Shown here piece by piece: positions 6,690-63,700 of a DNA stretch of 64,000 bases. Source of the DNA: Amoebophrya sp. A120 (Eukaryota > Protista > Dinoflagellata); the NCBI GenBank assembly GCA_905178155.1, contig CAJINV010000001.1, forward strand, positions 9,507,865 to 9,571,864, in the 5' to 3' direction. Positions within the stretch are counted from its first letter, which is position 1; the number at the start of each line of letters is the position of its first letter. The position numbers were made by a program, and so were the translations under genes. The notes under the pieces were generated by a model, which was given only the letters and a program-made list of their open reading frames with translations, ran no database searches and had not been told where the DNA came from.

Positions 6690-9600
6690 CTATTTACTCC
6701 CGCCGTTTCCCTTCCCACGCTGCATGTTTTCCCGGCGCTGCTGCTGTTGCAGGACGTGGTCACGCAGCGACACGGTACCGAACGAATCCCCACGTATGTA
6801 ATGCGTCTCTTCGTGCACTAGTACGCCATCTTCCTCCTCGTAGTTCGCGATAGAGTTCACTCGGTCTTCGAAACTTGACAAGTCTTGCGGGAAGACAAAG
6901 GGGGTAATCGCATTGGAAGATGAACTGGAACTGGACGCGCCATTTGTGTTGCCGCCACCAACATCGTTGAGCTTGTTCAGGGCACTGTTGTAGTTGAAAC
7001 TCGACGGCTCCGGACGGGGAGGCTTCTGGAACGCATCGGGCGACACCATTGGGGGCGAGGCCGGATCTTTCTTCCCAAATCCGGTCCGAAGGTTATCCGT
7101 AATGCGCTTGCTGGCACTGTCGTGACCCAGCCTCATCTTATTCGAGTTCGGTGCGGCGGAGGAGGATCTGTTTGTGTGTTGAGTAGAAATAAGATCATAT
7201 CGAAGAAAGATATCACAAAATAATGGAAATCGCTTCAACAAGCCTCCCCTAATTCTACACTGCCAAGAGTGTTACAATATCAATACCACTCAGGAAAACC
7301 TTGTTACCTGCTTGTATCTTTTGGTTTTCGTTCCGAGCCTTTGGCAACAACATCAGATGCTGTAGAGTCATTTTTCGGCGACGAGCCGTTCCGCAGTGCC
7401 GCCTGCGCACCTCGTTCTGTATCTGCGTTCTTGGTACTGCTGCTGTGCAGAATCTGCTGCACCCCCTCAGACATGTCGATGTGCAAATCTTGCAGGGGAT
7501 GACTCTTCTTTCGCAGTGACTTGCCCACTTGCTCGACGTTTTCCTTGTTTTCGACGGCATGATCTTGTTCACCCTCGCCAACACTAGGTCCGCGCTGATT
7601 CGCGGCCCCGAACAGGGATCCGCTTTTGCTTCGTGACCGGCTTCGACAGGACGCGCGGGGCAGCGCCGAGGAAAACGACTTTTGCCTCTGCTGCATGCTG
7701 GCGTCGTCGTCCTCGCATATCTGATGCAGGGCGCCACTGCTCCTGGCAGCGCCGCTCAGCGACCCCGTCGGGTCGATTCGCAAGGAGGACGAACGGCCGA
7801 GATTCAGGATGTCGTGGTCTTTGTCATTGTCTTTGCTGTGTTGCAACAGCGCGCGATTCTTGATGGAGGATGCGGCCGACATAGGTGTCACGAGGTGATT
7901 TGGGCCCCCACCACCGTAGGGGCTCGGCCGTATCACCGACATGCGTGCGGGGTTGATGTTGCCGTTCAGGTTCTTACTGTCGCCGGGTTGGTGGTCGGAC
8001 AGCCGTGCACCTGTGAGAGGCTTACTGCGCGACCGCGACCGCGACGTGTTTACGTGGTTCTCGCGTCCACCGGTAAAGATCGGGGCGTCCCGCGAACGCG
8101 ATGCGACGGACGTAGAGCCACGCTGGTCGCGATGAACAAGGTTCTTGCCATGGAGGTCCACCAAAATTCTTCCGCTACAACTACTGGAATGCGGTTGTTG
8201 CTGTGCTTGGTCGGGCCGCTTGGAACTTGAGCTCGACGCAGCTCCCTTGGAACTACCAGGTTGCGCAACGGCTGAGACATGATCATCTCCTCGATCTGAG
8301 CGTGGTCCCGCTGTCCCAGGAGCGGCCCGTAAGCTCTGTTCGCCGACGCTTTTGCTGTCGCGCAACACCGCAGGCCGGGAATTCGTGCGTCGCACCTCGC
8401 TACCGAGCGACTTCACCTGTCGCTCCAAGGTCGGAACTTTCGCCACCTCGCGCTCGAGTGATTCCATGCGCTCGCGCTGGTCTATGGGACTCTCACACGT
8501 TACATTCTCAACTGTTACATGATAGATTTGCCATGCAAAATATACATCAACATCCACAAGGTGAAGCTACTTCGCATGGCAAATTTTTGAAAGGCTAAAC
8601 AGTACCTAAATCTGTGCAGAATTTGTAATGCTACAGGTGCAACCTCCCTGGTTTGTTTTGACTTTTGCCACTCTTGCATCACAAATTCATGTAAGAGTTG
8701 AGAATGTCACAGTTGAGAACGCCATATGGTCGTTGAAGGACTTGACTTGCTGTTCCAAGGAACCAATGCGATTTACCAGCTGGGAAAAACTCGCCGCTGT
8801 CATGGTCACGACGGTGCCATCGCTGTTCGTATTCACAGCGCTGTTTGCGAGCACCAACTCACCACCGCTCTGGTGGTCTATCACACGTTCATCCTCGGCG
8901 GGTCCTCCGACACTAACAATTGCGGACTCGGTCGACGGCAGAAGAGCGGTAGAGGAAGAAGAGGTAGCAGCTGAATTTCCGCTGATAAAGGTGGATACCG
9001 TGCTGCTCACCCGAAGGGAGCTCGCGCGGTCTGGTTTCTTGTTGTCCTTCATCAGGCTATCATCTTTAATGGCCGGCTCTACTACTACTGCTTCCGATTG
9101 GCACGACCTCGCAACCACCAGCAAAGATTGCTGCGTAATTTGCCGAGAGGCCTTGATCCACCTTCGGAGCAGGCGGAACAGGCGCGTTGCGGCAACAAAC
9201 TTCTGCAGCAGCGGGGACTCAGGCGCGGGGGTTTTGAGGGAAGTCGATCCACTGCGCCGTGCGCGTCGCTTGCGCACCCAGGCCTTGACTGCCCGCTTGA
9301 ACAACACCAGACCGGTGACAATTTGCAAAAATTTCGTTCGGGTGTGCACGCGCGCAACATGGTCTTCGACGCGGCGAAGAAAAAACGTTTCTTTCATGCT
9401 GCGGATCCAGCGTCGCAGCCGGATCGAGAAAAAAACAGCCCGCGCGAAGGACCTCGTAAGGTCCCGTTTGTACCTCCTCCTGCGAATGTATCTCTTGCTG
9501 TGCAGCACCAGCAGGGCTCCTTGCACGAATTTGCGCCAAAAATGCTGAATGCGCTTGTCCTTCTCGTCCCGCTTTCTGGCGGTTCTGTAGGCGCGCCAGC

Positions 9601-12600
9601 GAAGCTGCAGTCTGCGCAAGTGCATGATCTTGCAGAAGATGTCGTCGACGCGAGGGAGCGAAGGTGGAAAACTGGAACCGACGTTATTAACGCGAGCGAA
9701 TTTTCGTTTCCTCCGATGCGCATCGACCAGGGACAACAATGCCTCTTTTTTGTTCTCCCTCGATTTCCCACTCTCCTTCAAAAACTCGAAGATCCGCCTA
9801 GCGCCCAGTCTCCGAGCATTCACGAAGCTGCGCAGGTGCACGGCAAGCAGGCAACCGCGGGCCAGACTTTGCAGCAGCGCCTCGACCCGGAGTTTCTTTT
9901 GTCGCCTCTTCTCCTGCTCGAGCTTCAGCGCCCTGTTGAAGCGCCAGTCGCGGATGTGCAGGCGCAGACACACCCGGAACAGCACCGAGCGGAGAAAGAA
10001 GTCCCAGTATCTTTGCGCCCGGACTCTTCGAATGGCGCGCCTTTCGGCGACGGCGGCGCGGAAAAATTTCCGGACGTGGACGAACATCAGAGTCCCCCGC
10101 GCGAAGGACTCCACCAACTCCCTTGTCCTCTTCACTCGACGCTGCTGTTGGGACACTCTGGCAGTTTGCAGCAATCGTTTCAGCGCAACGGTGAGCAGCG
10201 CGTGACGGGCAAAGGCAGAAACGTTTTGCTTCGCGATCTCCGCGCGGCGCGTTTCCGCTGCTTGCTTGATGAGCCGTCTGGTATTGGAACGGCGGCGCAG
10301 GAAGAGTTTTAGCAGACTGATGCGCCAGAATGCGCACAACAGCTCCTCACTCCGCTTTGCTTTTGATGCTCGTTCATGCTTCTCTGCGATACGGGCCCTG
10401 AGTCCTGCAACGTACTGTTTGAACTTCGAGACCAACAAGGCACGGCGGAAGAACAAGTGGAGAAATTGCTCGGCCAGTTCCTTGCGCGCCTTGCGGATCC
10501 CCGACAGAGCTCTCGAAAAAGCTATCTTTGCTTTCAGGACTCCGCAGAGAAGGGCAACATTTTGCCGCAGCTGCTGCTTGCGGATTCGCATTTGTGCGAC
10601 TCTTCTCCGGACGTATTTCTTGACGTGCGCGAACAGCAGAGATCCCTGCAGCCACCGGCGGTAACGGTGTTCGCGGAGGGCTATTTTACGCTGTCGAAAG
10701 CGGTCGACGACCGCGGCCATCCTCGGCTTCAACAGGGCAAATCGCAAAACAGCTTTCCACAACCGCACCCGCCTGAGGAGTCGCTGCAGCCACTTCCGCA
10801 ACTCGATCTGCAGGCGAATCCCGCGTACCAGGGTCGTCACGTTGCTCTCGGATTTCAGGCGGCGCTGCGCACGCCTGCGCCACCGCACCAACCGCACGAA
10901 GGTGCGCGCCGCACTGACCATCCCCTTTTCGAGGTTTTCGCGGCGACACTTCTTGATGAATGTTTTCAAAAAGACGGCGAACCGGACAGCGAGCAAGCAG
11001 CGTTTCAGCTTCTTCTTCGTGAAGAACCGGCGGAGGTCGGCGGACACCTGCAGACTCGCGTTGTCGGCCAACAATTTCTGCAGAATCGCGAGCTTCCCCG
11101 ATTTGAGGAACAATTTCGAGATGCCCATCACGTAGTCGCACTTCGGGACTTCCAGGACCAGCATCAACAGGTCGATGAACGTTCTGGCGTCGTAGGCCTC
11201 ATACTCGTGTCAACTGTAAAAGTGTCTGGGTCTGGAAGAGTCCAACTTGTCATGCAGATTTTGGACTCTAAAAAAATCTGTACTGCATGAGCAGCAAAGA
11301 GAGTCCAAGTTTTGCTACACGGAAAGAGCATTTGTCATGCGGTATAGGCATCAGGAAGCCGTTACAAAATCTGTGATGCTAGGGCATGCATCACAGACAT
11401 CAGGAGTCATGCAAAATGTGCATGACAAACCTGCACCTGGCAATCTTCCAGACCCAGACATTTTTACATTTGATAACTCGTCCGGCAGTTTGATCGTGGA
11501 CTGGAACTTCGCGGCCAGCATTTTGTAGTCGCACCGGTGCGGGTACCCGCGGTGCATGATGTCGACGAGCTGAAACGTCCCGGACTCGCGCATCTGGTTC
11601 AGGACCACGGGTTTGTCGAAAAAGTGCGGTTCCTGCACCGCGTTCGGGCAGAAGCAGCGGATGTAGTGGAGGTTCGCTTCCTGCAGGGTCGTGATCAACG
11701 CCTGCAAGTCGCCCAGGTACTTGCGGCTCACGGAGTCAAACGTGGCCAGCGTCGCGTTGGCGCCCTTGCGATTGGCGCGCCCAATCACGTCGATTTGCTC
11801 GCGATTCAAGTTGCTGCCGTCCGCCAGCAGATTCCGCGGCGAGGCCTGGAATTTGTCCGACTCTTCGAGCACAAATTTGGACACGAGAGAGTTGCTCGAG
11901 AGTGCGACCACTTTCTCCAGCTCCGCGTCCAACCGGGAGTTGTTTTTCTCCAGCCACCCGGCCGTGTGGTACGTGATGTCACCGGCGAAATGGGTGATCA
12001 CGAATCCCTCCGACTTCAGGATGCTGTCTACTTCGGTGACCCCCCGACCGCGTTTCGGCTCCTTCACGATGCCGTGCTGCCGGGCGCGCTCGCCGGTCTT
12101 GAAGTGCACGTGCACGTTCTGCGTGTAGGTCGCGGCCGTGACCTCCTTTTGCGACATGCGCCCCACGCGGAAGCACGCGTCGTCCAGCATGCGGAAGCAA
12201 TCCGCGATCGCGCTGACGCAGGGACCGCACTGCGGCACGTCGATGCTGGTCCACTTCAGCCCTTCGCGGCTGTAGAGCTCCTGCTCCCCGAGGAGCACAT
12301 TGTCAATGAAAAACTGCTGCAGATGCTCGTTCGCTAAGTTGATGCACAACTGCTCGAACGAGTTCGCTTCGAGTTGTTCGAAACCGTAGATGTCGAGGAT
12401 TCCGATGGTCTGCTGGTGGGGCGGGAGGTTGCTAGTACCGATGCCAAGATCCGGGTTGATGTCGTTCGGTGACAAACTCGCGGACAAATTCGGAGAGTTG
12501 TTCCGCTTGGTGGAATGGTCTTTCCCGTGGAGGGAAGCATTCACGTTCGTCACCACGTAGTCGAAAAGCTTGCGGTAGAGAAACTTGCTCAAACTGTGCA

Positions 12601-21400: not shown

Positions 21401-24400
21401 ACTGGCCATCAGCGGGTCGTCAGCATCATCAAGCGTAGGAGACGGGACAAGCAGAACCGCCGGACCTGATTCCGTTTCCAGCGCGTCGAAGTCGTCGTAG
21501 TCATCTGCTGCCAAAGAAAACAAATCGTAGTTGTCGGCGCCGATATGGAATGGCAAGTTTTTCTGTGTCAAATTCCTCCCGTCGAGGTGTGCAACATCGA
21601 GCATGTCATCGTCGATCCCGGGGTCGCCAAGACTCGCCGAGCTTTCCTGCGTTCCCTGCTTGCCGTCCCGCCGCAACGCAATTTGCGTGCGCACCACGGT
21701 TCGTAATCGCGAGGGGTGCGCACTGGTGGGCCGGCCGGCAGCACTCGCACTCATCCCTGGAATCGCGTCGGAGCCGACGCGCTCGAGCTCGTGGTCGCCA
21801 TCATCGTCCTCGTCAAGGACTACACCAATTTGCAGATCGTCTTCCTGGGCACTCGCACTTGCTTTGCTTCCCTGGTTTACAAGTTCCTGGCTGGAAAAAT
21901 CCGGTCTGCTGTTCACATTGTCTCGTTCTCCTTCTGGAGGAAATAATTGCCTCGCCGCGCCATCCAGCATTTCAGCAAACATCGAAGAATTTACCCCGCT
22001 GGCCTCTTCCGCTTGAATTCCGACGTTGTTCATCACTGGCAAGTGGTAGACAAACGGGTTGAAGCCCAGAGGCGAGTCGCGGTTCCGTGCGGACGCAATG
22101 CCGGTCCGGATGCGATTGTACTTCCACCGGAGTTTTCGGAACAGCGCCTCTTTGTAGATCCTGCGCCCGAGAATACCCCGAAACCAGGCTTGGATCTTCG
22201 TTGCGTTGCGCCACGGGACTGTGTCGGTGCGGAAGAGGTTTTGCATGCTCTCGTCTTGCTCTCCCCCAATGAGCAAGTGGTCCGGAATTAAGCCCGTTTG
22301 ACTCTCCGCGCCAAGCAGCCCGTGCATCCGGAGGTTGTCCCTTAAGCGCCTCAATTCGTCCTGCATCATGCGGATCGACTCGGCTTGGGATTTCGCTAGA
22401 TCTACCATCTCCCCGTTTATGCGCTTTTTCGGATCGGTCAAGTAATCCACGTACACCGTCGCAACCGCGCGGATGACGAGGTACTCATGTTCGTGCTCGA
22501 AGTAACTGGCGTCGGAAGCACTGTTGACGCCGACTACGGATTGAACTTCGTTTTGCTCCAGGTTCTCAAACCAGGCCGGGGGGATCGGATAGTCCAGAGC
22601 GTGCTCGAAAAGTGCCGCATGTGGATCGTGGTGCTGCTGCTGCTGCGCAACATCATGATCAAACAAAGTTGTGTTGCTGAGCTGGAGAGTTGATGTTGGC
22701 GCGCCACGGTCGGCGAATGCTTGGTTCGGGTCCTCTTCATCTCCGAACCCCGCTGGCGGGGCTCCTGTTTCGCCGAGAACACCAGCTGTGCCAGGGTCAA
22801 GTTGCAGTGTGACATTCTGGTCCCAACTGAAAGCTGTCTCGCCGAAAGCAACTGTCGCTGCGTCGTCTTGTTGTAGTACTGTCCCTTGATGCTCTTCTTG
22901 CCCTGCGAGCATGTTTCGATACTGCTCGTTTCGTTCCCGGTCACTTTTAGCGAGAATTTCAAACGTGTCTTTTTCATCCAAAAAGTAGTTGTTCATGTTC
23001 AACAAGACGCCGTCAACAAGCTCCGTTCCAACCCCCTGCTCCGCAGTCATCTTGTCGATGACAATCCGGTACAAGAAAGAAAGCAACACTTTCGCGAACT
23101 CCTGCTTTTCCAACAAGCCTCTCTTTCGCAGCTCCTCTTCCTCCGCCAGTCGCCGTAGTTCATCTTCCGTCAAAATGTCCCGATCCTCCGCCGCCATCAG
23201 CTTCAATTCCGCCCGCATCACTTCCCTATCGTAGATCTCCTGCCATGCGAGTTCGAAGATCGAGGGAAGAAAACTGTAGTAAGATTTTTTCGGAGCTGCG
23301 GCAGGGGATCTGGCCTTGCTCGCTCCTGTGCTGAGATCTTGCGAAGTAGATTCGAGCTTTCTGTTCGCGACATCAGTGTTCATCTGCGACACCAGTTCCT
23401 TCGCACGCCGAGCCTCTTCCTCCACTTGATTGATTGACGCTTTCAGTTCCTGGTGCCGCGTGTCGTACTCCAAATGCTCCGAATACCGCTGCAACACATC
23501 TCCAAAGTCATCATCTAGCAGTGACTCCGCTTGCGCTTGCTGCTCCAGCAACTCCTTGTAGTGTCTCGGCTTCTGCCGCGGAGATCCCCGTCGGCTCGTC
23601 ATCGTCCCAAAGGCCGCGGTGCTATCTCTATCACCGCCACCACCAGCCGCGCCGAGATCCACCCTTGGGCTTAGAACCGGGTCGCCGAGCCCGACACGCA
23701 ATTCCTCGAGATTGGACGTGTCCGCTAGCGAGGTCACGACATTCTGCTCTTGCCCGTCTGTCGGCGACCGTCCGAGCAAGATTTCTTCGACCTCGCGCAT
23801 TCTCTGCTCCCGCTCTAACCGCTTTCTTTCCTCTATCCACAGTAAATTTCCCGTACAAATGCAGTCTCTGCATGACAAAAGCAAAACTTGCCTTCAATCC
23901 TAGTCTAGCATGACAAGTTGTACACTGCAAGTTAGCGGAATTTGTCATGCATTTTATACATGTACGGGAAATTTACATTGCATATCCTCCTCCGCCTCCC
24001 GACGCCGTTTTTCCGCGAGCTCCGCCAGCCGCTCGTCCTCGATCTTGCGCCACATCGCAAGGGAGTAGAGATACACCTCCTTCAAATTTTTCTTCACAAA
24101 CGCCTTGCGGATCATGTCGTCGATTTGCGTCTCGTACAAATTCGCCAGGTACGGCGGGACCACACGGTAGCGGTAGAAGTTGTACTGAAACAGGGTGAGT
24201 TGCTCCTGCATGATCCGTTCCGTCATGATTCTCGTGTACACATCGTTCGTCAAATTCCGCACGTAGGCTTTGGACACCTGTGTGGGACAGTTCGAAACCC
24301 GTTCCAGCGCCTTCCCGTCGACCACGTTGCCGTATGCGTCGAAGTAGTACTCGACCGCGCGCCGCATTCGTCGCCGGCTGTTCGGGGACATCCGCGGCGA

Positions 24401-32383: not shown

Positions 32384-33720
32384 CTTTATTTAGGCCCCTG
32401 CTGACAGGGGCTATTCTTACCTGGTACCCTCAAGTCATTCTACGTCGATATGGATCGATTCAGATTCAGAACGTTTCATGTACGTGCGCTTTTGAAGAGC
32501 CACGATAGTTGCGAAACGTGGCCGAAACTTATCGCCATCGTAAGAAACACAGGCAAAAGAAAACCGCCACCGCGAAAAGCGAATATAAAAAATTTAGAAA
32601 TTATGTATGGCGCTGCATCAGCTGCGCCACAGATATATCACGAGTTGTAAATACGAGTACGACCTTCGAGTCGAAGCACGACCTGCGACGCTCCAAACCG
32701 TTGTTTATCTTCGCGGCGCGCTTTCATCGACACCAACGATCGAAAATATCCGTTGCGAGGCACGGCGAATGCAAACGCATTCCCAGAAGTTAAATGTTTG
32801 TCCTGAGCGACAAAAACGAACTCAATGTATGAATTGCCACGAACATTGAGGAGCGAAGCGAAGACACACTAACAACTTACTATCCTCACGCAAAATAAAA
32901 AAACAAACGGATACGCGATCAGGAAAGATCAGACAGACTGCCAAGCGCTGCCTCAAGGTCCAGGAAACGGTCAGCCCGGAACAAAGGAATCCAATCTTTC
33001 ACTCTTAGCAGAAAGCCACTAGACGGAGCAGAGGCTGTACTAATAGGCGTGAGAAGTTATCCTCAAACATCTAGGCTGGGGTGGTCAATCTCAATCGATT
33101 CTACAAACAGGACTAGCTCGTCGAAGCTATGACATCAAGTCATTTTCATGAAAATGTTCGTGTATGGTGATGTCGTTGATACTTTTCCAGTATTAACCTT
33201 CGTGCAATATGTACGTTGTTAGTTCCTCACGTCACTCCATTAATTCTTGCTTTTCTTTTTGTAAAATTATCTTCAGGGTAGCACCGGTGCTGCTTTTGGT
33301 TTTCTACTTAAATTAAAATTGGAGTGTGTCGCTTTACTTGTCGAAGAACTGTATTGAAATCCATACATTGCTCCCTTGATACGTCAAAATCAAAAATGAA
33401 ACAAATAACTAATTGAAAGGGCAACTTGCTAAGAACACTCAAAACATATGAAATAACTCATCATACACGGAGGAAAACTTCTGCGATCTAAAGATTGCGA
33501 GACAGTTATCCGATTTATTATCACCTGGTTCCTATCATTATCATAATTGCGCACCGGGAAAGAGGGTTGGAATTTGTGTGATTGCTTTGAAGTTTTCGCT
33601 TTTCGCAAATGGAAAAGCGGATGATCGTGGTTACTGGTAAGCCTTAGGCTTAGCTGCACAACGACAACAGAAATACGCGTCATCCCATCTTCTCAAGTGT
33701 CGCTCTATGCGACGACCTCT

Positions 33721-36700
33721 TCACCTTGGTGTCGGCGTCCGCGCCCCAGAGCGATTTCGCGCGTAATTGGTAACATTGAAAGAGGTTTGCGTATAGTGGA
33801 TGCTCTTCGTTTTCACTCGATTTCTGTTTTTCTGACTGAAGAAATCGTTCTGTTCGTAAACAAGTTGCTCCTTGGACATCCGCCTAGCACTGCTCGGGCG
33901 GCGAGAAACGGTGGAGTTTGTTTCTTTGCTGGCGGTGTTGCGGTCCTTCTCCTTGCTCGCACGGACACTTGCGCTCCGGGAGGCGTCGCGCACCAACAAG
34001 GGCGTGCGCGAAGACGAAGTAGAGCCATGCGGGTTTACAGGCACAATCGCCGTTGGTGTAATGGCAGATGGCATTGGCACAAGCGCCATGCTGGAGCACG
34101 CTGATGTGGGCTCTCGATAATTCTGCGACAATTTTTCCGCGTGCTTGTTGGAGTCAGCAGTTGCCGTCGAGTGCTGGTGTCTGCTCCCCTGGGCTGCCTG
34201 AGTTGCATTCCTACTGCTCAATCGACGATGAGACAGCGCCGGCCTCTTGTCGTCATTTTGAAAAGACTGCTTTCTGTCTCGCTCCCCTGGGGGCTGCACC
34301 TGGTGCTGCTGGGCGGCCATGGACTTCGATATTGCATCGTGCAACCCCGGGTCCTCGCGCCATTTCTTTGCCGACGTCGCGTGTCTCTCTGCCCTTGCAT
34401 CGTGGACTTTGGTGCTAGAATCCGGCAGTTTCGGCATGGCCGAAAGTTGCGGCGGCTGCAGTCCCATCGACGGGGTACTGGCATTCGGCGGGTTGTTTTC
34501 AAAGGGTAGAGGCATCAAGGACAGATCAGGCCATGGTTGCGATGGTGGGGGGCGGATGAATTGCGCGGGTCTGCTAGAGGGCGCTGCAGTCCTTACTTCT
34601 TGCTGCGAGGGTGGGGGATCGGGGCCCGCATAGTTCCGAACAAGCGCTGTAGAAACCTGAAATGCAGCTTAAACTTGAAATTCATTTTTGTTGTTGAACG
34701 GCTGCAATTTCAAATTCATGCTCGTCCAAACCACGCTTAAATGTGTCAACATGAAAACCTAAACAAGGCTCCTGGGTTTTATCGTAGTGATTATTTCTTG
34801 CCTTTAGATTTACCTTCGACATATCTTCTACTTGCTGCGTGATCCGCCCTTGCTGATCCTTTACCACAAGCGCCACTGTTCCCCGATTCTTTCCCGGGGA
34901 TATGCAGACCTGGCTCGGACCGAAGTTGAACTGGAAGCCCTCCGGACCGTCGTTTATGTTTCCGATCTTCATTCCGGGGGACGGCGACGAGGGCTCGTAT
35001 TGACGGGGATTTCCCGCCCCAGCTCCGCCCGGAGGATTTTGTTGCAGCAGCTGGGGGGAAGGCGAACTGTATTCCGAGTTGGCCTCTGGAACGACCGGAA
35101 GCCGCTTGTCGTTTTGCTCCACCTTCTGCAAAAACGCGATTGCGTTCTTCTGGATCCGCTGCTCGTGGGTCAGGTAGTTATTGCTTACACCGCTAGACGC
35201 GAGAAGCCGGGTTCGAGCACCTAAAGATTATTGTAGAGTAACAAGGTATATTCCGCACACCAACAGCAACACGATGCCCATCGGATGGGTGACTCTACCA
35301 AGACTACAACTACAAGCAACAAGGTAGGAAAGTGTACAGCCGGTACATAAAGGGATAATTTCTACCTTGATCATTCTCCCTTTTCCAAAACTGATCGAGC
35401 GTGTTTGTCACCTCGAATTGCTTGTCTCGTCTGCTTTTTCCATACGACGCTGCGAGCAACCGGTTTCGCTTGATGAAGTCCGTGGTTTGGCCGCCGGAAG
35501 ACAAGCTCGAGCGCCGAGAATTCGAACAAGAAGTCGACGGTCGGCGGGGCGGCTGCACCGAAAACGATTTGGTATCCCTGTAATAGTGAGATTCATTTTC
35601 ATTTTGAAGACACTTACACCACAGAAGCGGATCTTCCCGCCCCCCTGATCTTGCGCGGGCTGAAAAAAACAGTCACTACGGTGGTCTACTCCTTACTGAC
35701 GGCACTTCTGTCAGTCACGACGACGCATAAGTACAAATTGCACTGACAACAGCCGAACTTTACATAAGTACATGACATGGTCCGCGTGATGCGCGTGTTG
35801 ATTCCCGGGCCCTCTACCGCTCCGACGACCGCCGCAGGCCAGACTGCCGCTGCTATGCGGCCGCTCCCGCTGCGTGGCCCACTTGGCCAGGTGCCGTGCG
35901 TGCTTTTCGTCTCGCTCCCACTGGTGCAAACCGACGTGGACGCGGTTTGCGCTCGCCTCCCGATGCAGAACGTCTTCTTTCCGTCGCGGACTCCAGAACG
36001 GGTTGAGATTTGCCACGTACGTGGAATTGTCGGCAATCTGGTGTGCCAGATCCGTGCGGTACGACCGCTGGGTGCTCAACTTTTGCTCTGGGCTCTGCTC
36101 CTGGGTGGACGGGTCATTCCGAACCAACGCAGCGCAGCCGGCAAGGCTCGAGAGCTGCCGCGAAGGGGAGCCGCTCCTGTCCCGGGGACTGGAAAGCGTC
36201 GGCGTAGCTTCCAGGTCGAAGGTGCGCTGATACGCGCCGGGAGGCTGGTGCGCATTTTATCGACTTTCTCAAAATCACAAAACAAAAACGAGCGCAACAG
36301 CAAAGAAACCTCTACACGAGGTGAACCTGGACGCAAATGCAGATTTCAGCAAGGAACGTCTACTCGCAGGTAGTACCTGCCACTGGTGGTGCCCGCGCGG
36401 TTGCGATTCTCGATTTCTAAATCCCGGCGATTGCGCCAAGAAGCCCGTGACGCGGCCAGCCTTTTCGTCCTGAATTATAAGAGGTTCAACTGTTGATTTT
36501 CTAAGTGTTTTCGAATTTTTCTCAAATAGCTACTTTGCATTCAGAAACTAGTTATGTTTAAATAGCTATTTCCGCGGCTTATGTAGGTAAGCTAGGTAGG
36601 TTCTTTGCGGCTGTGTCTGCAGCCGCAAAGAACCTACCTAGCTTACCTACATAAGCCGCAAAGCTAGCTAATTAAAACTATTACGTTTTAGCTATATGAG

Positions 36701-38649
36701 AAAAATTCGAAAATAGTTATAAAATCAACAGTTGAACCTCTTATATGAATGTGATCGGGTTTACTCGCCCCTTGCGCGGCAGGCGACCGCGGACTGACAT
36801 GCTCAGGTCGGTACGAATTTCCGAGCCCCGCGGGATCTCCGGCTTTCGGTTCGACCTCTGCTTCGTCAGGCGCCACAAGCCTGGAACTGCGCAACGACGG
36901 CTGTGACCGTTTTTTCTCGAGCAGCACCTGTGCGAGTGCGTCCACGTTTGCCCGCTTCTCTGCCTGTTCGGTGTGCTTCTCAAGGGCCTGCAACAGCGTC
37001 GCCCGGGCTTCCTGTGCGACGGAATGCTCGCGATTCTCTCGCCGAACCTTTTGCTCCTTCAGCTTTTTCGTGTCTGCAGCGCTATGGTTGTAGTCGTCGC
37101 AGACGGCTTTCAGCTGGCGGACGCGGTCCGAAAACACGGGTACGGAAGAAGTTGGCTGTTGCGCGGAAGAGTTGATTTCTTGAGTTGTGCGAGCACCGTT
37201 TTCGACGGATGAGTTCGGAATGTTATCCTGCAGCGGTGCAGCAGTCTCTCCATTTCCGTAGCATCGTGCGCCATCGTGGTCCATGATCATTCGACTGGAA
37301 GACAGATGGGTCGCAGGTGCTAGGTAAGAAGAAGATTCACCAGTTTGATGATGAATGTCTGCATTCCTGTTCCAGTACCCCGAACTGGTTCTTTGAAGCG
37401 CCCCGGAGCTGCGTCCACGGTCCGGAGAACGACTCCTGCTTCTGCTCTGATGTCCGCCCGCTCTCGAATCTTCTGCGCTGCCTCCAAACGCGCCACCAAC
37501 GTCACCGTCAGCATCCGAAACAAGACGGCCTCTGGAACGACGTGTGTTTGACATTGGGGAGGGATCTCTGTACTGCTGCTTGTACTCAGAGACAAATTTC
37601 TCGCGCGGCCCCCGACTGTTTCGCGACCGGACTTGCTGCGGAGATTGTGACCGGGATCTGCTGCTATTAACGTTGTTGCGCCATGAAGGAGAGTTTTGTA
37701 GCAATTTTTCATGTTCCTGTTCCTCGTCGTACCCCTTGACGGCTGATTGGAGGTTCTTTTCAATCTCTTCGTGCGATCTTTTCAACTGCGCTCTCGACGA
37801 CCTAGGCGACAAAGATGAAGCATTCCTTGCATGCTCCCTCCCTTCCCGTCCATGATACCAGTCTTTATCGTTTTGCTGATGCCCCCTACCAGCATTACTG
37901 TTTGGCTTGTCGTTGTTCCAGCCGCTGTAGTTGTCATACCACGTTTTGTTGTGCCAGTTGGTGCCCCAATTGTTCCAATAGTCGTACTTTTGATTGGTCC
38001 GGTAGTTCTGTTGATATGACGTGCTATTCGAGTTGTTGTAGCCATGATACGTGCCTCCTTGACCATGGTCGTTGTACCACGACCCCCACTTGTCGTAGCT
38101 TTCTCGTCGTGCTGCTCCTCCCCACCAATTGCTAGTGTTTGGTGAAGTAGCTACCATGCGCGGACTCGCCCAGGAAGAAGTCGCTGGGTTGGGGGATGAA
38201 GATGGGCCTGACTTGTAGATGGCGTTCGGATCGCGCCGCGGGCTTCCTTGTCCCTGATGTTCAGTGGACGAACCATCCCGATTGTAACCAACGTTCTGCG
38301 TCGATACTGCAGCTGCATTGACGATTCCAGCAGAATATGGAGGTACGCCTACCCACCACGAAGTAGAGGGTCCTTTCGCATCCTCAAAATTACTCCGCGC
38401 CGGCGTCACAGGCTGGGGAATTTGAGTGACAGGTTGGTTGATTGTGCCAAACCCGAAGGCTGATCCCGGCTGCACCGAAGGGCCAGTTTGCACATGCTGC
38501 ATGACGACTGGGTAGTTTTGCGCCACCGAATCTGTCGAAAAGTGTGGCTGCCGTGGTGCCGCTGTTTTGCTACTTCGTCCATCCAACGAAGATGCCGCCG
38601 TAGTCAGCAATAAAAGGTTCGGATCCAAACTGGGCGCGTCCAGATTCAT
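33721..38649 (-). CDS. Hypothetical low-complexity protein (~1,340 aa, 6 exons) with a W/N/Y-rich segment
   Basis: Exons 36751-38649, 36377-36475, 35772-36244, 35366-35577, 34814-35220 and 33721-34656 join in frame through one TIR element and four GT-AG introns. No recognisable domain. ORF 38570-39295 may supply further 5' exons. Confidence 0.7.
36476..36745. mobile_element. Introner-like non-canonical intron 4, foldback type (270 bp, 57-bp TIR, 5-bp direct repeat TGAAT)
   Basis: TIRs starting TATAAGAGGTTCAACTGTTGATTTT match at 53/57. TGAAT lies at 36471-36475 and 36746-36750. Removal gives KPDHI-QDEKAGRV, open to a CAG|GT donor at 36376. Confidence 0.93.
36574..36659. repeat. Perfect 40-bp inverted repeat with a 6-nt loop inside element 4
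   Basis: 36574-36613 is the exact reverse complement of 36620-36659; the loop is TGTCTG. Confidence 0.97.
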
Positions 38650-39518
38650 GATGGAACTTGTTCTTCCGCCTGGCTTTGCCTTTCACGATGAAGTTGCGAC
38701 TGTGTGAGTCTGAGTCTATTATAAAGAATTCATATGATATTTTCCCACATGTTGATAAGCAATCCGCTCGCACTCCCTGGTCTCGTTGCCATGCATGTGA
38801 ACAGCAAGGTATAATTTGCCCAGCTCTTTCACTCCCGAGCACTCGTCTACTTTTTCTGATTCTCTTTACCCTTCCCGCAAAGAAAAGCAGCTGAACACCA
38901 TCTATGCACCGAAGAACCACGGACACGTCGGAGCACGGAGTTATATTGCTTCTTGGGCCCCGCGACGCGGTGAGTGATGATGATGATGAGTCAGCAACCC
39001 CATAGAGGTCAATCCAGCGATTTCCTTTTCTTTTGACACTCTGACGGACAGACACATTACTTGCGGAAAAGCCTCTTGCTGTATCGCTATCGGGCCTGGA
39101 TCGTGAAATATTTTGTATCGCTGTTCTTCTCGAACCTAGACCAATGCTCTTGAAGATAAAGGGTTCCTCTATGATAGAGGGTTCCTCTATCGATTCAAGG
39201 ACAGCATACACATACTGCTGGAGCTCACAGAATAATTTCGTGGCATGGGCTGCCTCATCTGGAAATCCATCATCATAATGCTTGGTCCTGCTCAAATCTT
39301 TCGTTATGTGTAGAATATTATTTGTTTTCGATTACATCGTGAAAGTGACTGTGAATGGTGGTTCAAAAACGGCCCTGGAGCGCGAGGACCAAAGCTCAGA
39401 AAAAAATGAAACAAAAACATGATGCGCGAAGACAGTCACGAAGAGCACCCTTGATGGTCGACATCTCGGGCTCCTTCGCGTTGGCATTGGGGGGTAAAAG
39501 CTTGTTTCCTGTGAAGGT

Positions 39519-52029: not shown

Positions 52030-55000
52030 TCAATGATGACCCCCGCCTGCTTCCCCGGATCCGTCTGCGTGCACGACACTTGGCCGGCTCCATTCCGGCT
52101 CTCGCGCCCAGTGGGCTTTGGCGTCCCAAGCCTTCAGATTGATGATCGCGACGGGGAGACACTCCAACGTGACAAGGGTCGCGAACAAAAGCTTTTTCTG
52201 CTGCTCGGACACCAAGCCTGACTGGACGAGGATGTTCAGAAACAAAAGTTGGAAATGCCCAAGCGAAACCAGGACCTGTGGAAATTTTTGGATACGTTTA
52301 CGTACCTGTGCACAACTTCCTTCAACTTCATGTTCTGCGTCGATGCAAAACTACGATACAGACAGCATTGAAAAGCAAATGTTGACGTGTAGGCCACGAC
52401 TGACGCGGTATCTTCAAAACCTTACCTTTGCCGACCAAAACTTCCATTTCGGTTCAAACAGACGCAGCCAGTGGGTCATGTGCCGCTCGAAAGCGACGAT
52501 GTTGTACAGGGCGCCCATGGAAGCGATCAGGCCGGCGCCAAAAATCATGGACTCGAGGGTCTCGATCAGTGTCTCGTGCCTCTCCAGCAAGTGATCCACA
52601 AATTCGTACCGATGACCGAGTGCGCGCGACAACACAATCACCAGCTGGAAAGCCGCACCGAAAGCGTTCACCACAACGAAAGTCTGGACGCCTGGCAGAA
52701 GTTTGGGTGGAAGTATAGTCAAAAAACCGCAGTGGTAAAATTCACAGGTGTGCCAGGCACTGTTGTACACAGATGCAGTAGTTAATCTTTTGTGCTCAGT
52801 ATGATGATCACTATCACTGTCATTACTGTGTTGAATGAAAAACCTCACTTAGCTACCAAGCAGCGTAATCTTCCTCAACGGGTCGAACATGCGCTCGCGC
52901 TGTTGCTTGCGCAGACCCTGGTTCCTGACCGCGCCGACGCACAATCTCGAAAAGCACCACAACGCCCACGCTACGTACAGGTCGGCCATGTAAAAGTTCG
53001 CTTCGTAATACTGGCTGAATTTTCTCTCGCGAAGATGGAGTGGTAAATACTTTGCCTCGTCACCCGCGTGGATGTCTTGCGGGGCTGGTTCTGGAGATTA
53101 CGATGATATCTCTGTAAACTGGAATCGGAGTCTTTGCTTTGACTGAGGCTTAGCTTCAAGATGAACCTTCGAACTCAAAGTACCGGACTGCATGCAATAC
53201 CGCTGTTGCTGACAATAGCGTCCGGAGAGCAACAAGAGATCACGTGGAGAAGAAGTCAATAGTGATAGATTGTTAAGTAGTTGTTCGTAGAGCCACAAAA
53301 AAAAAAATAATAATACCTTCCGGCTGAATCATAGCAGCCTCACCGGCGGACGAATTTTGGTCGGACAGCGGCATCACCAGTGCCGCGTACAACGTGTTTC
53401 CTACCTTGTGGTACAACATAGCGGCCGTGTTGTGAATGCGATCGTGGTGGACCGTCCCCGACATGAGCTCCGACATCCGTAAAGTGCTTTTGAACGCCAG
53501 TAGGGAATACACCACCGGTAGCAAAATGACTTGTATCGAGTAGTCATGCGGCTTGATCGCCAAATGCGCCAGATGTGGCTCCTCGATTTCGGTTTTGTTG
53601 CGCATGCGCTCCGAGAGCGTGGTGAACTCGCTGATGGCGGCAACAGAAGACGATCGGCGGGAAGAGACGGCGGAGCTGTTGACACTGCTCCTTCTGGAGC
53701 ATCGCGATGGTCGCTTGTGTTTTCCAGTTTTCTCTTTGCTTGCATGGAGCAACACGAGGTTGTTTTTGTTCGCAGTGTGGTCTTCACATTCACTACTGGC
53801 CGCCTTCTCCACCTGCTCCGCCACGTCGGTGTTTGCAGTACCCTCCACGAGCTTAGCCTGCTTCTCGTCATTGGCAGCCAATGTGAGCGCGTGCGCGACC
53901 TTGAGCTTTTGCACCACCTCATCGTGCGTCGGGGTGCCGCAGGAAACCGTGCCAGGAGCTCTCTCCTTGTCGTGGAACAAATCTCCGATTTCTCCCATGC
54001 GGTTGTGGTGCCTGCAAAGATTGATGCCGGTCACGACGAAAGTGATTAACACAAAAACGCCACTTAGATCCACCAAAATGCTGAGAATCGCGGGGATGCG
54101 ATAGATGTGCTTGTGCTCGACCTCATCCAGCAGCGCAGACTCATGCTCGAGCTGCTCATCCGTGACTCGGCCTGGTTGCTCTCGTCGAACCCGGCTCTGG
54201 TGCCGGCTAACAAGCGCGGTCGCTATCGCAGTGGTGGTAGCGGGGGCGGGAGGTGGTGCCGCTGGGTGCTGTACATGCAAATTCGCCTGCAGTGGACGAT
54301 TTGGATTTCCAGCCACGTCAGATCCTCCCTGTGCTGCTCGGGAAACCGAGAACCCTTCACTTTCTGTAATTGCTCCTGCAGCCGAACTACCCGTCGGGGC
54401 TTTCTCTTCACTCGTCTTCAGGCGGCCACTTCTCGTCAGCTCGGATTCCTGCTCAGCAATAGCTGCTGGAAGTAGTTCCGTCCCTTCCTGCTCGTGGCCG
54501 TGGAGAAGCTGCGCCACTTCCTGCACCACGTCTCCGGCTTCAATGGCCTTGCTCTTTATCGGTATTTTTTCCAGCTTCTCCTCCGGATTCTCTTCGAGAA
54601 AACTCGCGGGCGCTCCTGCACTGCCATTTCCACTGTCATGTTGTTCGCGTTGTTGTTCTTCTTGTTCGGAGGTCATATGTGCTGCTCCCCGCGGTGACGA
54701 TAGTGGCCCACCAGCACCTGCACTTGGATTTTCAGTGTCTAGTGGCGCGAGCGCTGCTGATCTCACACCCCCGCTGCGGTTCCGCGGCCGCAAAAACTGA
54801 CCACTGCTGTCGCTTTCCGCTCCGTCCTCGTCTGCCGGCTCATCTTCTGCCGATGAAGGACGGCGATTACCAGGTCCACCTCCGCCGCTCAAAAGAACTT
54901 CTTCAGGCAATACAACCACTCCCCTGCGTTGGTCGCCGCCATCTGCACTCGCCGCAGGCGATGCAAACGCACTTGATCCTGGTTCGTCCGACAACTCCGC

Positions 55001-55555
55001 TTGTGGTGCAGGCGAAGAGCCGCCATCTCCCCGATCTTGATTGGTTTGCCCATGTCCTTCCCCCGCTGCTCTCGATCTCTGTTCCTGCACTGCCGGCGCG
55101 TCTTGAACGAAGCGTTCCCAATTCTTCGCTGCCTTTTCGTTTCTCGGCGGGCTATGTTCCTGCTCCGCGGCCGTCTCTTCGGCGTGCAAGTCTTTTGCGA
55201 CGTCCGTCATTTTCTGGAGCAAATCCGGCCGCTCCTTTTGCAGCTTTACCATGTCGCCGAGCGCAAGCAACACCCGCTTCTCCACCTTCCGCCGCTCCCC
55301 ATGGTCTCTTTGCTCCCGTAACCAGGCCCAATAGCGCGACTGCTTGATGTCGGGGAGCAGGTAGCTGCGCAAATCCAAACACCGCTCCAGGTCCGCGATC
55401 CAAAGGCCGAGGATGCAGAGGTAAAGCGGGATGTAGTAAGTTGTATACCAAGCTCTTCGCTTGGTGCACGTGTCCCGCCAACTTGCATGCTGGCCAAGGC
55501 GTCGGATGGCACCGAAGACAACAAAAACGATCACGAGATCAAGAACGGTCAACAT
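52030..55555 (-). CDS. OST-alpha/TMEM184-like multi-pass membrane protein, 4 exons
   Basis: Several hydrophobic helices and motifs IQVILLPVVYSLL, ADLYVAWALWCF, PKWKFWSAK-VLVSLGHFQ and LVTLECLPVAIINLKAW. Three GT-AG introns (~53092-53316, ~52692-52856, ~52276-52426) keep the frame. Confidence 0.75.
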
Positions 55556-56421
55556 TTTTACCTACGCATACGTTAGGGAAAGAAGGCTCCTTAATTCGGC
55601 TTGTGACTCCCAAAAAGTTAAAGTACCGTGTTCATCCGGTGGGCTGAGAAATTATGTTGGAGAAGCAAGAGTCAATCGCAAAACAGTGACAATACACAAG
55701 AAAGCAAAACGCGGCTGGAAATCGGTCCAAAACAAACCTGATACATAGAACTCCTCCATTGGAGAGGGCCACTACTGCAATAGCGTGTCTCAACCCGCTC
55801 CGTTCCTCGGAGGTGGTCAATGCAGTGAGTATGTTTACTTACGTCCTCTGTATTCAGCTGCAGTCAGTTTGTATCCTGTTCTTCTGTGATGACGGGATTT
55901 GGCGAAAGCCTGAAGAACATTAGAGAACTTTCAATCTGCCGTTGCATTTTGTCAACCAAGCGAATCACTCTCTCTCCGAACAAAGATCGTGTAGCATATG
56001 CATAATCATAAACATACCGATGTATATGCTTCTGTTCTAGGACGGAGGAGGAACCTTTACAGCTGCTATTTTTATTCTACTGTAGTTTCCATAGGGAGAG
56101 GCGAAAAAATTACTTAGAGTCAAACAAAATATATCGATAAACCCAATCCAAAGCATTGCACCTGCTGCTTGACCGCAAAGCCTTTCCAAATCAAGCGGTA
56201 GAGTGCAACTCATAAAGCGCAATGAAATGGAAAAACTCTGTTTTAAGCCAGGCTCGAGGTAGCACTGTTTGTAATTTTCTTTCCGAAATAAACATAAAAG
56301 ACGCTGTTATGGGGATAGGCTTCCTCCCTACGAATTGACAAGATTACTACCGGTGATTTTCTCTTTTACTGTATCTTGCAAACTTGAAGATGAAGAAAAA
56401 AAATTCATCTTTGTACATCAA

Positions 56422-60746: not shown

Positions 60747-63700
60747 TCAAAACCCGTACATTTCATCAAGTCTACTTTTCGGTCTGTCCGCTTCAAAGTC
60801 CTCACTGTCCCACCGACTATCCGATCGCCCCGAAGGACCCCTTGCGGGGCGCTTGCGCATGCGGCGCGGCCGACGCCCCTTTCTGTCATTTGATGTAGCC
60901 GCGGAAAAACCAGGACGCCGATTTGTGCGGCCAATGCTGTTGGACATAGTGGAAACTTTTGTGTAGTCGACAACTGCACTAGAAGAAGGTAAGCCGTCGC
61001 TTCTCGTTGAAAGCCCACCTCGTCCATTCTGTCGCTTTGCCAGCGCCGATGGCAATCTAGAATTCTTACCCAGCGCAACAGGCGGCGTGCCGTAAGGATC
61101 CGGCCTGGCAGCTGTAGTAGGCTGGTGCCTTGATGTTGTTGCAGACGTCTTTTTGTTCAGCACACCGCCCACCGCACTTCGCGCTGCAACAGGCGCCGCG
61201 ACCCTGGGTGGCACTGTAGCAGAAGCAGAGTTGTTGTGCTTCTGAACAGTACCTGAATGGAACGGAGATGGTGGTGGCACCGCGGGTGCAACTCCAGCTG
61301 ACTTCCCTGCACCTGCGTCGGCAGGTCTTGTCACACTACTCCCTCCCGAAAGCTTGACCATACTCGTTTTCGGAACAAGGTTCGCTCCACTACTGTACAT
61401 CAAGTTGCTTTCATCGGCGCGGTTACCTAACTCAATTCCATGTTGAGCGGCGCCATTGCTCCCTTGTCTTGATGAAGATCCACCACCAGCGCCTCCGGCT
61501 ACCAACGAAGATCGCACTTGTGGGTTGTGTTGGTTCCGTACGAGTGTATGCGCAACTGTCAACGTGGTGAAGAAATTTTGCCAGTTTGCGCTGGAAAACA
61601 GGTGAAAATCCTCATCCGTGACGCAGGAGCGGAAATTTCGCCTTGGCACAACACTGGGGTAATTGGTGGTTGTAGACATGATGCCGACCCGCGCAGCCCC
61701 TTCTGTGCTGTTTCCAAGCGACCCAGCAGCAGCCTCAAGAACCTCCTGCTTTGCTACCTGCTGCAGCCAGGATCGCAGCTGCCTATCCTGTGCAAAAGTA
61801 TCGTACTCGTACTAATTGAAATCATGCATGACAAATCTTGTTTCTTAGCGAAATCAGCATTACAAATTCCATTTTTCTTTCTGGAAAAATTTGTATTGCG
61901 ATTTATACTAGTACGATATTTTTGCAATGCATACTGCCGATCGTAGAGCAACATCTCCGCGTTGGTCAGAACGCCCTGTGATGTTTCCGTGATGATCGGA
62001 AACCCGGTGGAGCAACCCGGATGCTGCAAAATTCCCGCTTTGACGAACTCCACCAGACTGGACCGGTAGGGTGCGGTCTCAAACCGCTTGGCCGACGACA
62101 CCAGGCGGCACAGAATCGCGGCTTTCTGCGGACCATCCAGAGCTGCCCACCCGGGGTAAATCGCTTCCAGGGTGCTGCTCAGCGGGTTCTGTTGCTGCTG
62201 CGCATTCATCAAGCGGCTGGGCTGCTCCGGATCTGTTGAAGGTTCTACTTGTTGAGAAGCAAACGTGGTAAAAGCGCCTGGCGATGAAGCAGCACTGCAG
62301 TTCTCAATCACACCCTCCTCCCCGTTGTCCACGCCTCGTGCCAAAATTTCCTCCCCCTCAGTGATGCTCTGCACCCAAGCAGCGATCGGCGCCTTCCACT
62401 TCTTTCGCAGATACTTGTTTCTGATCATGAAAACGTCCATAGCTTCAATCAAACACGGATTCGCAGGGTGGGAGGTCTGGCTCTCATCGGTTTGACGTCC
62501 CCCTCCAGAAGAAGGCACGATTTTGTTCGTCACGCGAATGTCAGAGACATTCGTCACGTCGTAGTAGCCCAGCCAACGCATGATTTCCGCGATGTAGAGT
62601 GCACTCTTTGTCGGTAACACGTGCCGCGCTAGCACGGCGTCACGAAACGTCGCAGTGAAGATTTCAAACGGACGCTCCACGTGCAGCGGAAATGTGTCTT
62701 CCGCGCCACTGTAGACGCGCTGACGCAACCAGGGCCGGATCTTTTCGGACAGCGAGGCTCCGGCACTGGGTGATGCTGAAATTCCATCGCAAATTTGTGT
62801 TTGCGGCGCCACCCGGTCACAGCCACTGCTTTTTTTCGATATGAAAGCACCAGTTTTTTCGGTTTGTACCAGGTCGCGAATTTTGTCGAAGCACAAATTC
62901 ACCATGCCCTCGACATCCAGCTTTTCTCGTTCCGCTCCTTTCTTTGGCGTTAAGTTGACGTGCCCACCCGGCGACGTTCCTGTAAAGACACTTTTCTCGA
63001 GCAGATTCCTCCACGTGTAAATTCCACAATTCTCCAAAAACGTGGCCATGGCGGTCGGTGTCAGCGGCACTTCGGTTTCCGCCCGGTGCGAACGCTGCAA
63101 GTATCCGAAGCGAACCAAAACCGTCCCAACCGCAGCTGCTCTCGCATCCAAGGTTGCGAGCGCTGGCTCCTGCAAGAACGGCTGAGTCCAGGATGAATCA
63201 TCGGATTTTACTGCACGACCCTGGTATAATTCCTGCCCACGACGATCTCTGCTAGTACGGGCGGAATCCTCCGTGCTAGCTGTGCCGGTAGAGCGACCAC
63301 AGCTTGCTGTAGTGGTAGACTCGTCCGATCTTGGCTGAGCGGCTACGTGGCCGACTACCCGGTTTTTGGTGTTCTTCGATGCGGGTGGAATAAACCCTTT
63401 GTTGTCCGCAGCGAGCGACGTAGCCGTGTCCCCGCCGATCGCCCCGGGCTGATCTCGTGTCTCTTCAACGACAGGACCGCTTTGCAAATCGTCGGCACAC
63501 TCGATGAGAAAATTGCGGTTCTCTGGTCGAGCGGCAGCGCGGTTGAACGTGAATAGTTCCGTGCAGCACTTGCGCAGGTCTTCCGAGCGCCGCGTGCCAA
63601 GCCGTGCGGAATCAACCAACACGTAGCAAAGCGAGTCTTTCGCTTGCAGCCTGTTGTACAGCGGGATAAAGTCCAGGTCCCCGGAAACGACGACAAACCC

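What the first reader, a model, noticed from the sequence alone, without database searches (positions are those of the whole stretch)
8478..61938. Five MITE-like elements act as precisely removable non-GT-AG introns with one shared rule: TAT...ATA ends and a 5-bp target duplication
Seen: five elements (8483-8726, 11208-11475, 23834-23984, 36476-36745, 61784-61933) interrupt the coding regions of four genes. Each has 24-57 bp TIRs, begins TAT and ends ATA (one ACA) in transcript orientation, and is flanked by a different exact 5-bp repeat (GACCA, CGAGT, GAGGA, ATTCA, GGCAG on the coding strand). Each carries in-frame stops or shifts the frame. Deleting the element plus one repeat restores the protein, and no register gives GT-AG (best options AC-AG, TT-AG, GA-AG, none, GC-AG). 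Established: IR/DR-bounded invasive non-canonical introns are reported in Amoebophrya, and to my knowledge their removal mechanism is unresolved. Inference: a structure-guided excision system, either at RNA level or IES-like at DNA level, operates alongside normal GT-AG splicing in the same transcripts.
Basis: partly seen in the sequence, partly recalled or inferred. Interest (0 to 1): 0.9.

Follow-up and report, generated by a model that had tools for sequence, protein, structure and literature searches.

The report
Amoebophrya transposon introns, precisely removed
Five small transposons sit inside protein-coding genes of what is likely an Amoebophrya-type marine parasite, and four are cleanly missing from RNA-derived contigs without GT-AG splice signals; the phenomenon was published in 2021, and the cutting machinery, likely a relaxed spliceosome, remains unidentified.

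Summary
All five elements, their inverted repeats, TAT…ATA ends (one ACA) and exact 5-bp flanking repeats are there; the rule finds 5 elements against 0.475 in shuffles. RNA-like contigs skip element + 5 nt at 4 of 4 sites laid and also splice GT-AG introns; a DNA run keeps E1–E3. Removal is therefore at RNA level, not IES-like. These match the introner elements of Amoebophrya sp. A120 in Farhat et al. 2021 (PMC7789003): TAT + 7 nt + AAA ends, 3–5-nt direct repeats, one 5-bp example. Refinements from a second assembly: 83 of 103 copies of one family have an exact 5-bp duplication; only 4 of 77 oriented coding copies allow GT-AG; both orientations occur; one copy splits RPB1. A G·U test found no sign of selection on RNA pairing, so "structure-guided" is unproven. 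Verdict: already known phenomenon, sharper rule, open mechanism. About 15 coding copies with mismatched duplications could map the true cut site.

The parts
8483..8726 (-). Element E1, 244 bp, 40-nt arms, ends TAT-N7-TCA type; in myosin tail coding region; repeats at 8478-8482 and 8727-8731
   Evidence: skipped with 5 nt (joint 8477>8727) in X3 and X6 contigs, not in X1
11208..11475 (-). Element E2, 268 bp, TAT...ACA in transcript sense; at the end of the myosin motor region; repeats at 11203-11207 and 11476-11480; member of the largest family
   Evidence: joint 11202>11476 in X3 and X6; 119 of 119 myosin homologues align across the joined junction
23834..23984 (-). Element E3, 151 bp; repeats at 23829-23833 and 23985-23989; in a large gene with no Pfam family
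   Evidence: joint 23828>23985 in X4 and X5; joined frame open for 3739 codons
36476..36745 (-). Element E4, 270 bp, 57-nt arms plus an inner palindrome (36557-36676); repeats at 36471-36475 and 36746-36750
   Evidence: joint 36470>36746 in X3, X4, X5 in a contig that also has four GT-AG joints; bin depths equal zero cover of the element
61784..61933 (-). Element E5, 150 bp; repeats at 61779-61783 and 61934-61938; precise register GC-AG, or GT-AG with one extra codon
6690..15466 (-). Myosin gene hosting E1 and E2 and a GT-AG intron at 7168-7307; outer limits approximate
   Evidence: Pfam Myosin_head E=3.7e-70; RNA pieces; joined 3' part open for 1785 codons
20948..32389 (-). Large gene hosting E3; limits approximate
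33043..38708 (-). Transcript hosting E4 and four GT-AG introns; 1352-codon frame after splicing
60747..64000 (-). Gene hosting E5; runs off the window; weak NYN-domain match below the Pfam cut-off

Best explanation
The five elements are short inverted-repeat insertions with 5-bp target duplications in coding exons, four of them missing with one repeat copy from RNA-derived contigs; they are likely non-autonomous DNA transposons (Amoebophrya introner elements), likely cut from the pre-mRNA by a host spliceosome that no longer needs GT-AG. Shown: anatomy, multi-copy families, presence in DNA, precise absence from spliced contigs (4 of 4 laid), no dependence on canonical dinucleotides or on one orientation. 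Inferred: insertion by an integrase-like DDE transposase with a 5-bp stagger; the symmetric arms give the same signals in either orientation (N-U-A-U at the 5' end, like the G-U-A of the host's canonical introns, and a U run 11-14 nt inside the 3' end); the cut most likely falls one base outside the 5' TAT, leaving four repeat bases upstream and one downstream. Neither the transposase nor the splicing enzyme was identified.
For: RNA joints of 249, 273, 156 and 275 nt, each element + 5, in contigs that lack GT-AG introns. DNA run X1 keeps the GT-AG intron and the elements. In a second assembly 83 of 103 E2-family copies have an exact 5-bp repeat, 11 more have one mismatch, and 93 of 103 end TAT..ATA, with ends found without assuming either. 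Precise removal gives a coding frame at 70 of 134 sites against 14 and 15 for off-frame controls. Of 77 oriented coding copies 4 allow GT-AG, 2 GC-AG, 6 AT-AC and 13 have neither GT nor AG; E2-family copies lie in both orientations, 29 vs 11 with 3 unclear. A 972-bp copy splits RPB1 and its removal restores the reading frame. For the spliceosome: Farhat et al. report 83 of 89 spliceosomal proteins and U2, U4, U5, U6 but no U1 in A120; all nine predominant A120 splice pairs in their Table S4 have T at donor position 2, eight of them non-canonical through the acceptor or donor base 1 as expected for this register; all 5 canonical introns checked here start GTA. Ends resemble integrase-type transposons: IS3EU TA..TA, IS481EU TNT..AYA, Ginger2 4-5-bp duplications; an A120 introner family with inverted repeats and LTR-element homology is reported.
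Against: No lariat, branch point or snRNA pairing was shown. AG at repeat positions 3-4, the predicted acceptor, fell from 8 of 28 to 10 of 77, p=0.06, in the larger set; G at position 5, the predicted donor, is not enriched (18 of 77). No pyrimidine asymmetry inside the 3' arm (0.505 vs 0.527). Damaged terminal triplets are not significantly depleted from coding sites (Fisher p=0.76, 0.08, 0.14 at three settings). The Table S4 pattern could come from aligner choice within the repeat. A 25-57-bp stem at the splice sites must be opened by a spliceosome. X3-X6 are only guessed to be RNA and come from one study; contigs drop rare forms. No transposase was found, and Farhat et al. found none in A120.
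Confidence: 0.55

Rival explanations
1. RNA-level removal by a spliceosome-independent endonuclease and ligase, or a dedicated second machine, that recognises the terminal stem or a protein bound to the arms and the shared internal GCATGAC motif, as suspected for Euglena nonconventional introns.
For: All five fold as long stems that join the ends (z -3.5 to -21.7). Dinucleotides and orientation are free. GCATGACA occurs in 13 of 17 family representatives. Euglenid nonconventional introns are excised as circles by unknown machinery (review passage).
Against: No G.U excess in transcript sense (58 vs 55), sense not clearly more stable (p=0.10), and arms no better paired at coding sites. The outermost pairs are weak in E2 and E5. 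Any inverted-repeat transposon folds this way.
Confidence: 0.33
2. The joined cDNAs are reverse-transcriptase template switches across a hairpin between direct repeats; mRNA keeps the elements and protein is made another way, for example by ribosome hopping between the duplicated codons (a 5-nt repeat holds one whole codon in any phase).
For: Non-canonical ends, flanking direct repeats and strong structure are the described marks of such artefacts (PMC10275267 passage). No RT-free data were seen.
Against: No contig covers E4 in X3-X5: bin depths match the joined contig exactly, and no loose ends at E3 or E4 suggest retention. The weaker stem E3 is skipped too. Coding copies tolerate a mismatched repeat (13-15 copies, no depletion). 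Myosin and RPB1 would need near-perfect hops of 250-970 nt.
Confidence: 0.05
3. IES-like programmed excision from DNA before transcription.
For: Inverted-repeat ends and precise loss of one repeat resemble transposon-derived DNA elimination (recalled). Rare or stage-specific DNA forms are invisible in contigs.
Against: DNA run X1 contigs enter E1, E2 and E3 from the flanks, and joined-form depth is 0 at E1 and E2. A second assembly also holds the elements in coding sequence. Only one DNA sample was laid.
Confidence: 0.03
4. Ordinary spliceosomal splicing at nearby GT-AG sites, or the host genes are pseudogenes.
For: In-frame GT..AG pairs exist near every element, and E5 has a direct one.
Against: RNA joints at E1-E4 are the precise non-GT-AG ones; the orthologue fits the precise form at E5; long open frames and conserved proteins follow removal.
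Confidence: 0.02

Closest known systems
Amoebophrya sp. A120 introner elements (Farhat et al. 2021, PMC7789003)
   Same: Non-canonical RNA-seq-supported introns with terminal inverted repeats starting TAT + seven variable bases + at least three A, 3-5-nt direct repeats (5 bp in the Fig. S19 legend), about 240 nt, many families, mixed with GT-AG introns in one gene. The end profile here matches.
   Different: Here the repeat is uniformly 5 bp when measured from the element ends; arms run 24-57 nt rather than 8-20; E1 and E4 have TCA in place of the A run; a shared internal motif was seen. The paper's figures could not be viewed, so some of this may be shown there.
A120 introner families in Gozashti et al. 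2025 (PMC12130899)
   Same: Mostly TIR DNA elements of 100-350 bp with largely non-canonical splice sites; family 38 has inverted repeats and LTR-element homology.
   Different: Automated duplication calls vary from 2 to 5 in the 19 of 58 rows seen, with one manual call of 5; no single rule was stated in what I read.
Euglenid nonconventional introns (PMC11282704 passages; PMC12501133 abstract and introduction)
   Same: Non-GT-AG, end-joining stems, duplication-like repeats, coexistence with spliceosomal introns, unknown machinery.
   Different: They need a CAG/CTG-type motif and a purine at the exon start; no such motif here. They are excised as circles; not tested here.
IS3EU/GingerRoot, IS481EU, Ginger2 DNA transposons (PMC10045372 passages)
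   Same: TA..TA, TNT..AYA or TGT..ACA ends and short fixed duplications from an integrase-like DDE enzyme.
   Different: IS3EU usually makes 6 bp, IS481EU 4, 15 or 25 bp; Ginger2 makes 4-5 bp. No transposase links these elements to any of them.
Micromonas and Aureococcus introners
   Same: MITE-derived introns that leave the protein intact.
   Different: Those use canonical splice sites, one carried and one taken from the duplication.

Membership tests
Amoebophrya A120-type introner element | Intron supported by RNA, with non-GT-AG ends | tested here: met
Amoebophrya A120-type introner element | Terminal inverted repeat starting TAT + 7 nt + AAA | tested here: met
   E2, E3, E5 and most of 34 family-representative ends; E1 and E4 have TAT + 7 + TCA
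Amoebophrya A120-type introner element | 3-5-nt direct repeat at the exon-intron borders | tested here: met
   5 of 5; 83 of 103 exact in a second assembly
Amoebophrya A120-type introner element | Repeated in families | tested here: met
   E1, E2, E5 cluster with copies in loci L001-L131; E3 has partial hits; E4 had none in these loci, which were selected with an E2 pattern
Amoebophrya A120-type introner element | Host is Amoebophrya | tested here: inconclusive
   Nearest named myosins are dinoflagellate and Amoebophrya paralogues at 35-39%; the assignment rests on the match of element anatomy to the paper
MITE (non-autonomous TIR DNA transposon) | Short, non-coding, inverted ends, fixed-length variable-sequence duplication, many copies | tested here: met
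MITE (non-autonomous TIR DNA transposon) | Cognate autonomous element with transposase | tested here: inconclusive
   Two longer copies gave no Pfam hit in four frames tested; no whole genome was held
IS3EU/GingerRoot | TA..TA termini | tested here: met
IS3EU/GingerRoot | Usually 6-bp duplication | tested here: not met
   5 bp; none longer in 103 copies
Spliceosomal intron | GT-AG, GC-AG or AT-AC ends | tested here: not met
   E1-E4; 65 of 77 oriented coding copies
Spliceosomal intron | Lariat intermediate and snRNP dependence | not testable with these tools
   needs branch-point reads or inhibition
Ciliate-type IES | Absent from expressed-genome DNA | tested here: not met
   one DNA sample, contigs only
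Euglenid nonconventional intron | Excised as circular RNA without lariat | not testable with these tools
   no raw reads of this organism's genes were available

The most novel reading that the evidence does not exclude
This lineage has a dedicated, sequence-blind RNA excision system, co-evolved with an integrase-type transposon, that finds any TAT..ATA element in either orientation, measures exactly five bases and ligates the exons without the spliceosome, making exon insertion free even in RPB1. The extreme form, not excluded without RT-free data, is that mRNAs keep the elements and ribosomes hop between the duplicated codons.
Probability: 0.3. Interest if true: 0.9.

Novelty: already known. 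Interest (0 to 1): 0.35.

Why it matters
The phenomenon is published, so the window adds instances, not a new system. What it sharpens is useful: a uniform 5-bp duplication points to one integrase-like mobiliser for many families, and means the reported diversity of splice dinucleotides is largely the target sequence read in an ambiguous register. How these introns are removed is still open. Coding copies whose two repeats differ by one base (for example in L011, L012, L020, L055, L059, L062, L073) let ordinary RNA reads fix the true cut site and separate a relaxed spliceosome from a new enzyme.

Tried and rejected
No whole genome was held. Run X9 (2026 RNA, same species label) matched only E2's arms and no gene, so it says nothing about these loci. 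No listed holder is on record as RNA; X3-X6 are taken as RNA-derived because they lack GT-AG introns. An AG-acceptor lead (8 of 28) weakened to 10 of 77, p=0.06. The G.U test, sense/antisense stability and pyrimidine asymmetry were null. An apparent shortage of damaged ends at coding sites (1 of 14) was confounded by short flanks and was not significant when redone at three settings; the damaged end lay 3' in 6 of 9, 3 of 3 and 2 of 2 coding calls. GnnnG targets, which would allow GT-AG with one extra codon, were 8 of 77, about the 6 expected. No match of the E2 pattern in viral contigs. No Rfam match in the window. No earlier findings of this scan. One literature search returned nothing. Strand calls in the second assembly use a codon model trained on this window and may contain errors; loci lacking flanks were dropped (134 elements scored; 13, 36 and 44 dropped).
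Full report
Observation. The five elements are at the stated coordinates, AT-rich (31-43% GC in a 53% window), with arms of 40, 30, 24, 57 and 39 nt. Each is flanked by an exact 5-bp repeat and by no longer one; removing element + 5 nt opens one frame across each junction; no precise register is GT-AG. A strict scan returns these five only, against a mean of 0.475 and a maximum of 3 in 200 shuffles.

RNA or DNA. Of 11 runs listed, six were laid. Contigs of X3 and X6 skip 249 nt at E1 and 273 nt at E2 in one contig that also lacks a GT-AG intron; X1 keeps that intron, runs into E1-E3 from the flanks and has depth 0 for the joined forms at E1 and E2 (84 further joints were not shown). Over 21000-39000 the joint table held six rows: four GT-AG introns, E3 (156 nt; X4, X5) and E4 (275 nt; X3, X4, X5). 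Bin depths there equal what the joined contig alone gives, so no contig covers E4. X3-X6 are one study and only guessed to be RNA; contigs hide rare forms. The database protein P0242 uses the precise junction and the orthologue P0243 aligns across it without a gap. After splicing, frames stay open for 1785, 3739 and 1352 codons, and 119 of 119 myosin homologues align across the E2 junction.

The rule in more copies. With partner ends found from arm similarity alone, 103 distinct copies gave 83 exact 5-bp repeats, 11 with one mismatch, 9 worse, none longer than 5, and 93 with TAT..ATA. Fifty-two further elements lacking the exact E2 arm motif obey the same rule; 178 elements fall into 17 clusters whose ends read TAT, seven variable bases, then an A run. 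Precise removal gives a coding-like frame at 70 of 134 sites versus 14 and 15 for shifted controls; among 77 oriented coding copies only 4 allow GT-AG, and both orientations occur. A 972-bp copy in L033 interrupts RPB1 (Pfam Rpb1_5 and Rpb1_6 upstream), and removing it with 5 nt continues the frame into what I recall as the conserved RPB1 motif. Whether this assembly is the same species was not determined.

Mechanism. The fixed 5-bp, any-sequence duplication and TAT..ATA ends indicate an integrase-like DDE transposase (inference from the end and duplication types in PMC10045372); none was found. Removal is at RNA level. I favour a relaxed spliceosome (0.55): the published A120 genome keeps most spliceosomal parts but lacks U1; the nine predominant A120 splice pairs all have T at donor position 2, which is what a cut one base outside the TAT gives; and the five canonical introns checked here all start GTA. 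The tests I could run did not confirm this: AG at the predicted acceptor 10 of 77 (p=0.06), G at the predicted donor not enriched, though G at repeat position 4 was 34 of 77 against 22 expected (p=0.005, partly target preference). The stems are real, but G.U pairs are not favoured in transcript sense and arms are no better paired at coding sites, so structure guidance is unproven. Damaged ends and mismatched repeats are tolerated or not significantly depleted at coding sites. A spliceosome-independent enzyme stays at 0.33, RT template switching at 0.05 (marks described in PMC10275267), DNA excision at 0.03.

What is known. Farhat et al. [quoted passage not shown] Gozashti et al. 2025 (PMC12130899; passages, and 19 of 58 A120 rows of supplement 8; files 13 and 14 not searched) class most families as TIR DNA elements with duplication calls of 2-5. 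PMC12005148 (passages) says such elements are confined to part of the genus. PMC11282704 (passages) and PMC12501133 (abstract, introduction) give the euglenid comparison. Searches listed no paper that resolves the mechanism or states a uniform 5-bp rule; subscription papers such as Roy et al. 2023 were not seen, and the internal motif was not searched in print. The host is likely an Amoebophrya of the A120 type, from dinoflagellate and Amoebophrya myosin hits and the match of element anatomy.

Verdict. Observation confirmed; interpretation partly supported; already known; interest 0.35 for the sharper rule and the ready-made test of the cut site.

Noticed in passing
L033:1494-2465: A 972-bp family member with a unique interior sits in the RPB1 coding sequence; removal with 5 nt restores the frame; no register offers AG or GT-AG.
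   Followed up: partly
elements E2, E3, E5 and loci L001-L131: Internal motif GCATGAC(AA): 8 of 16 window hits lie in the 1083 element bases; the related 8-mer CATGACAA is in 109 of 134 elements and about five times denser than in flanks; GCATGACA is in 13 of 17 family representatives. Possible protein-binding site.
   Followed up: partly
E2-family copies in L001-L131: Orientation relative to the inferred coding strand is uneven, 29 vs 11 (3 unclear); not explained by G.U pairing or stability.
   Followed up: partly
window 61779-61938: TAT..ATA ends with a 5-bp repeat of form GNNNG always yield an in-frame GT-AG intron adding one codon; this may explain the 15% of A120 canonical introns reported with repeats and could be a stepping stone in their evolution.
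   Followed up: partly
window 36557-36676: E4 holds a second, inner 57-nt palindrome, so the whole element is nearly one hairpin (about -163 kcal/mol); no relative was found in the loci.
   Followed up: no
window 11215-11255 and 11442-11475, run X9: 130 reads of a 2026 RNA run carry a related element's arms with other flanks, mostly one locus, while no gene of this stretch is covered: a relative with the same family, with the element retained or from DNA.
   Followed up: no
P0243 versus window 53273-55561 and 60747-64000: By eye, the orthologue P0243 joins a match to the E5 gene with a match to the membrane-protein gene at 53273-55561, suggesting conserved neighbourhood or a fused gene model.
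   Followed up: no
L050:765-1461: A 697-bp member with a GC-rich unique interior, perhaps captured sequence; no Pfam hit in two frames tested.
   Followed up: partly
window 1-64000: All long reading frames lie on the minus strand, as in the one-direction gene clusters reported for Amoebophrya.
   Followed up: no
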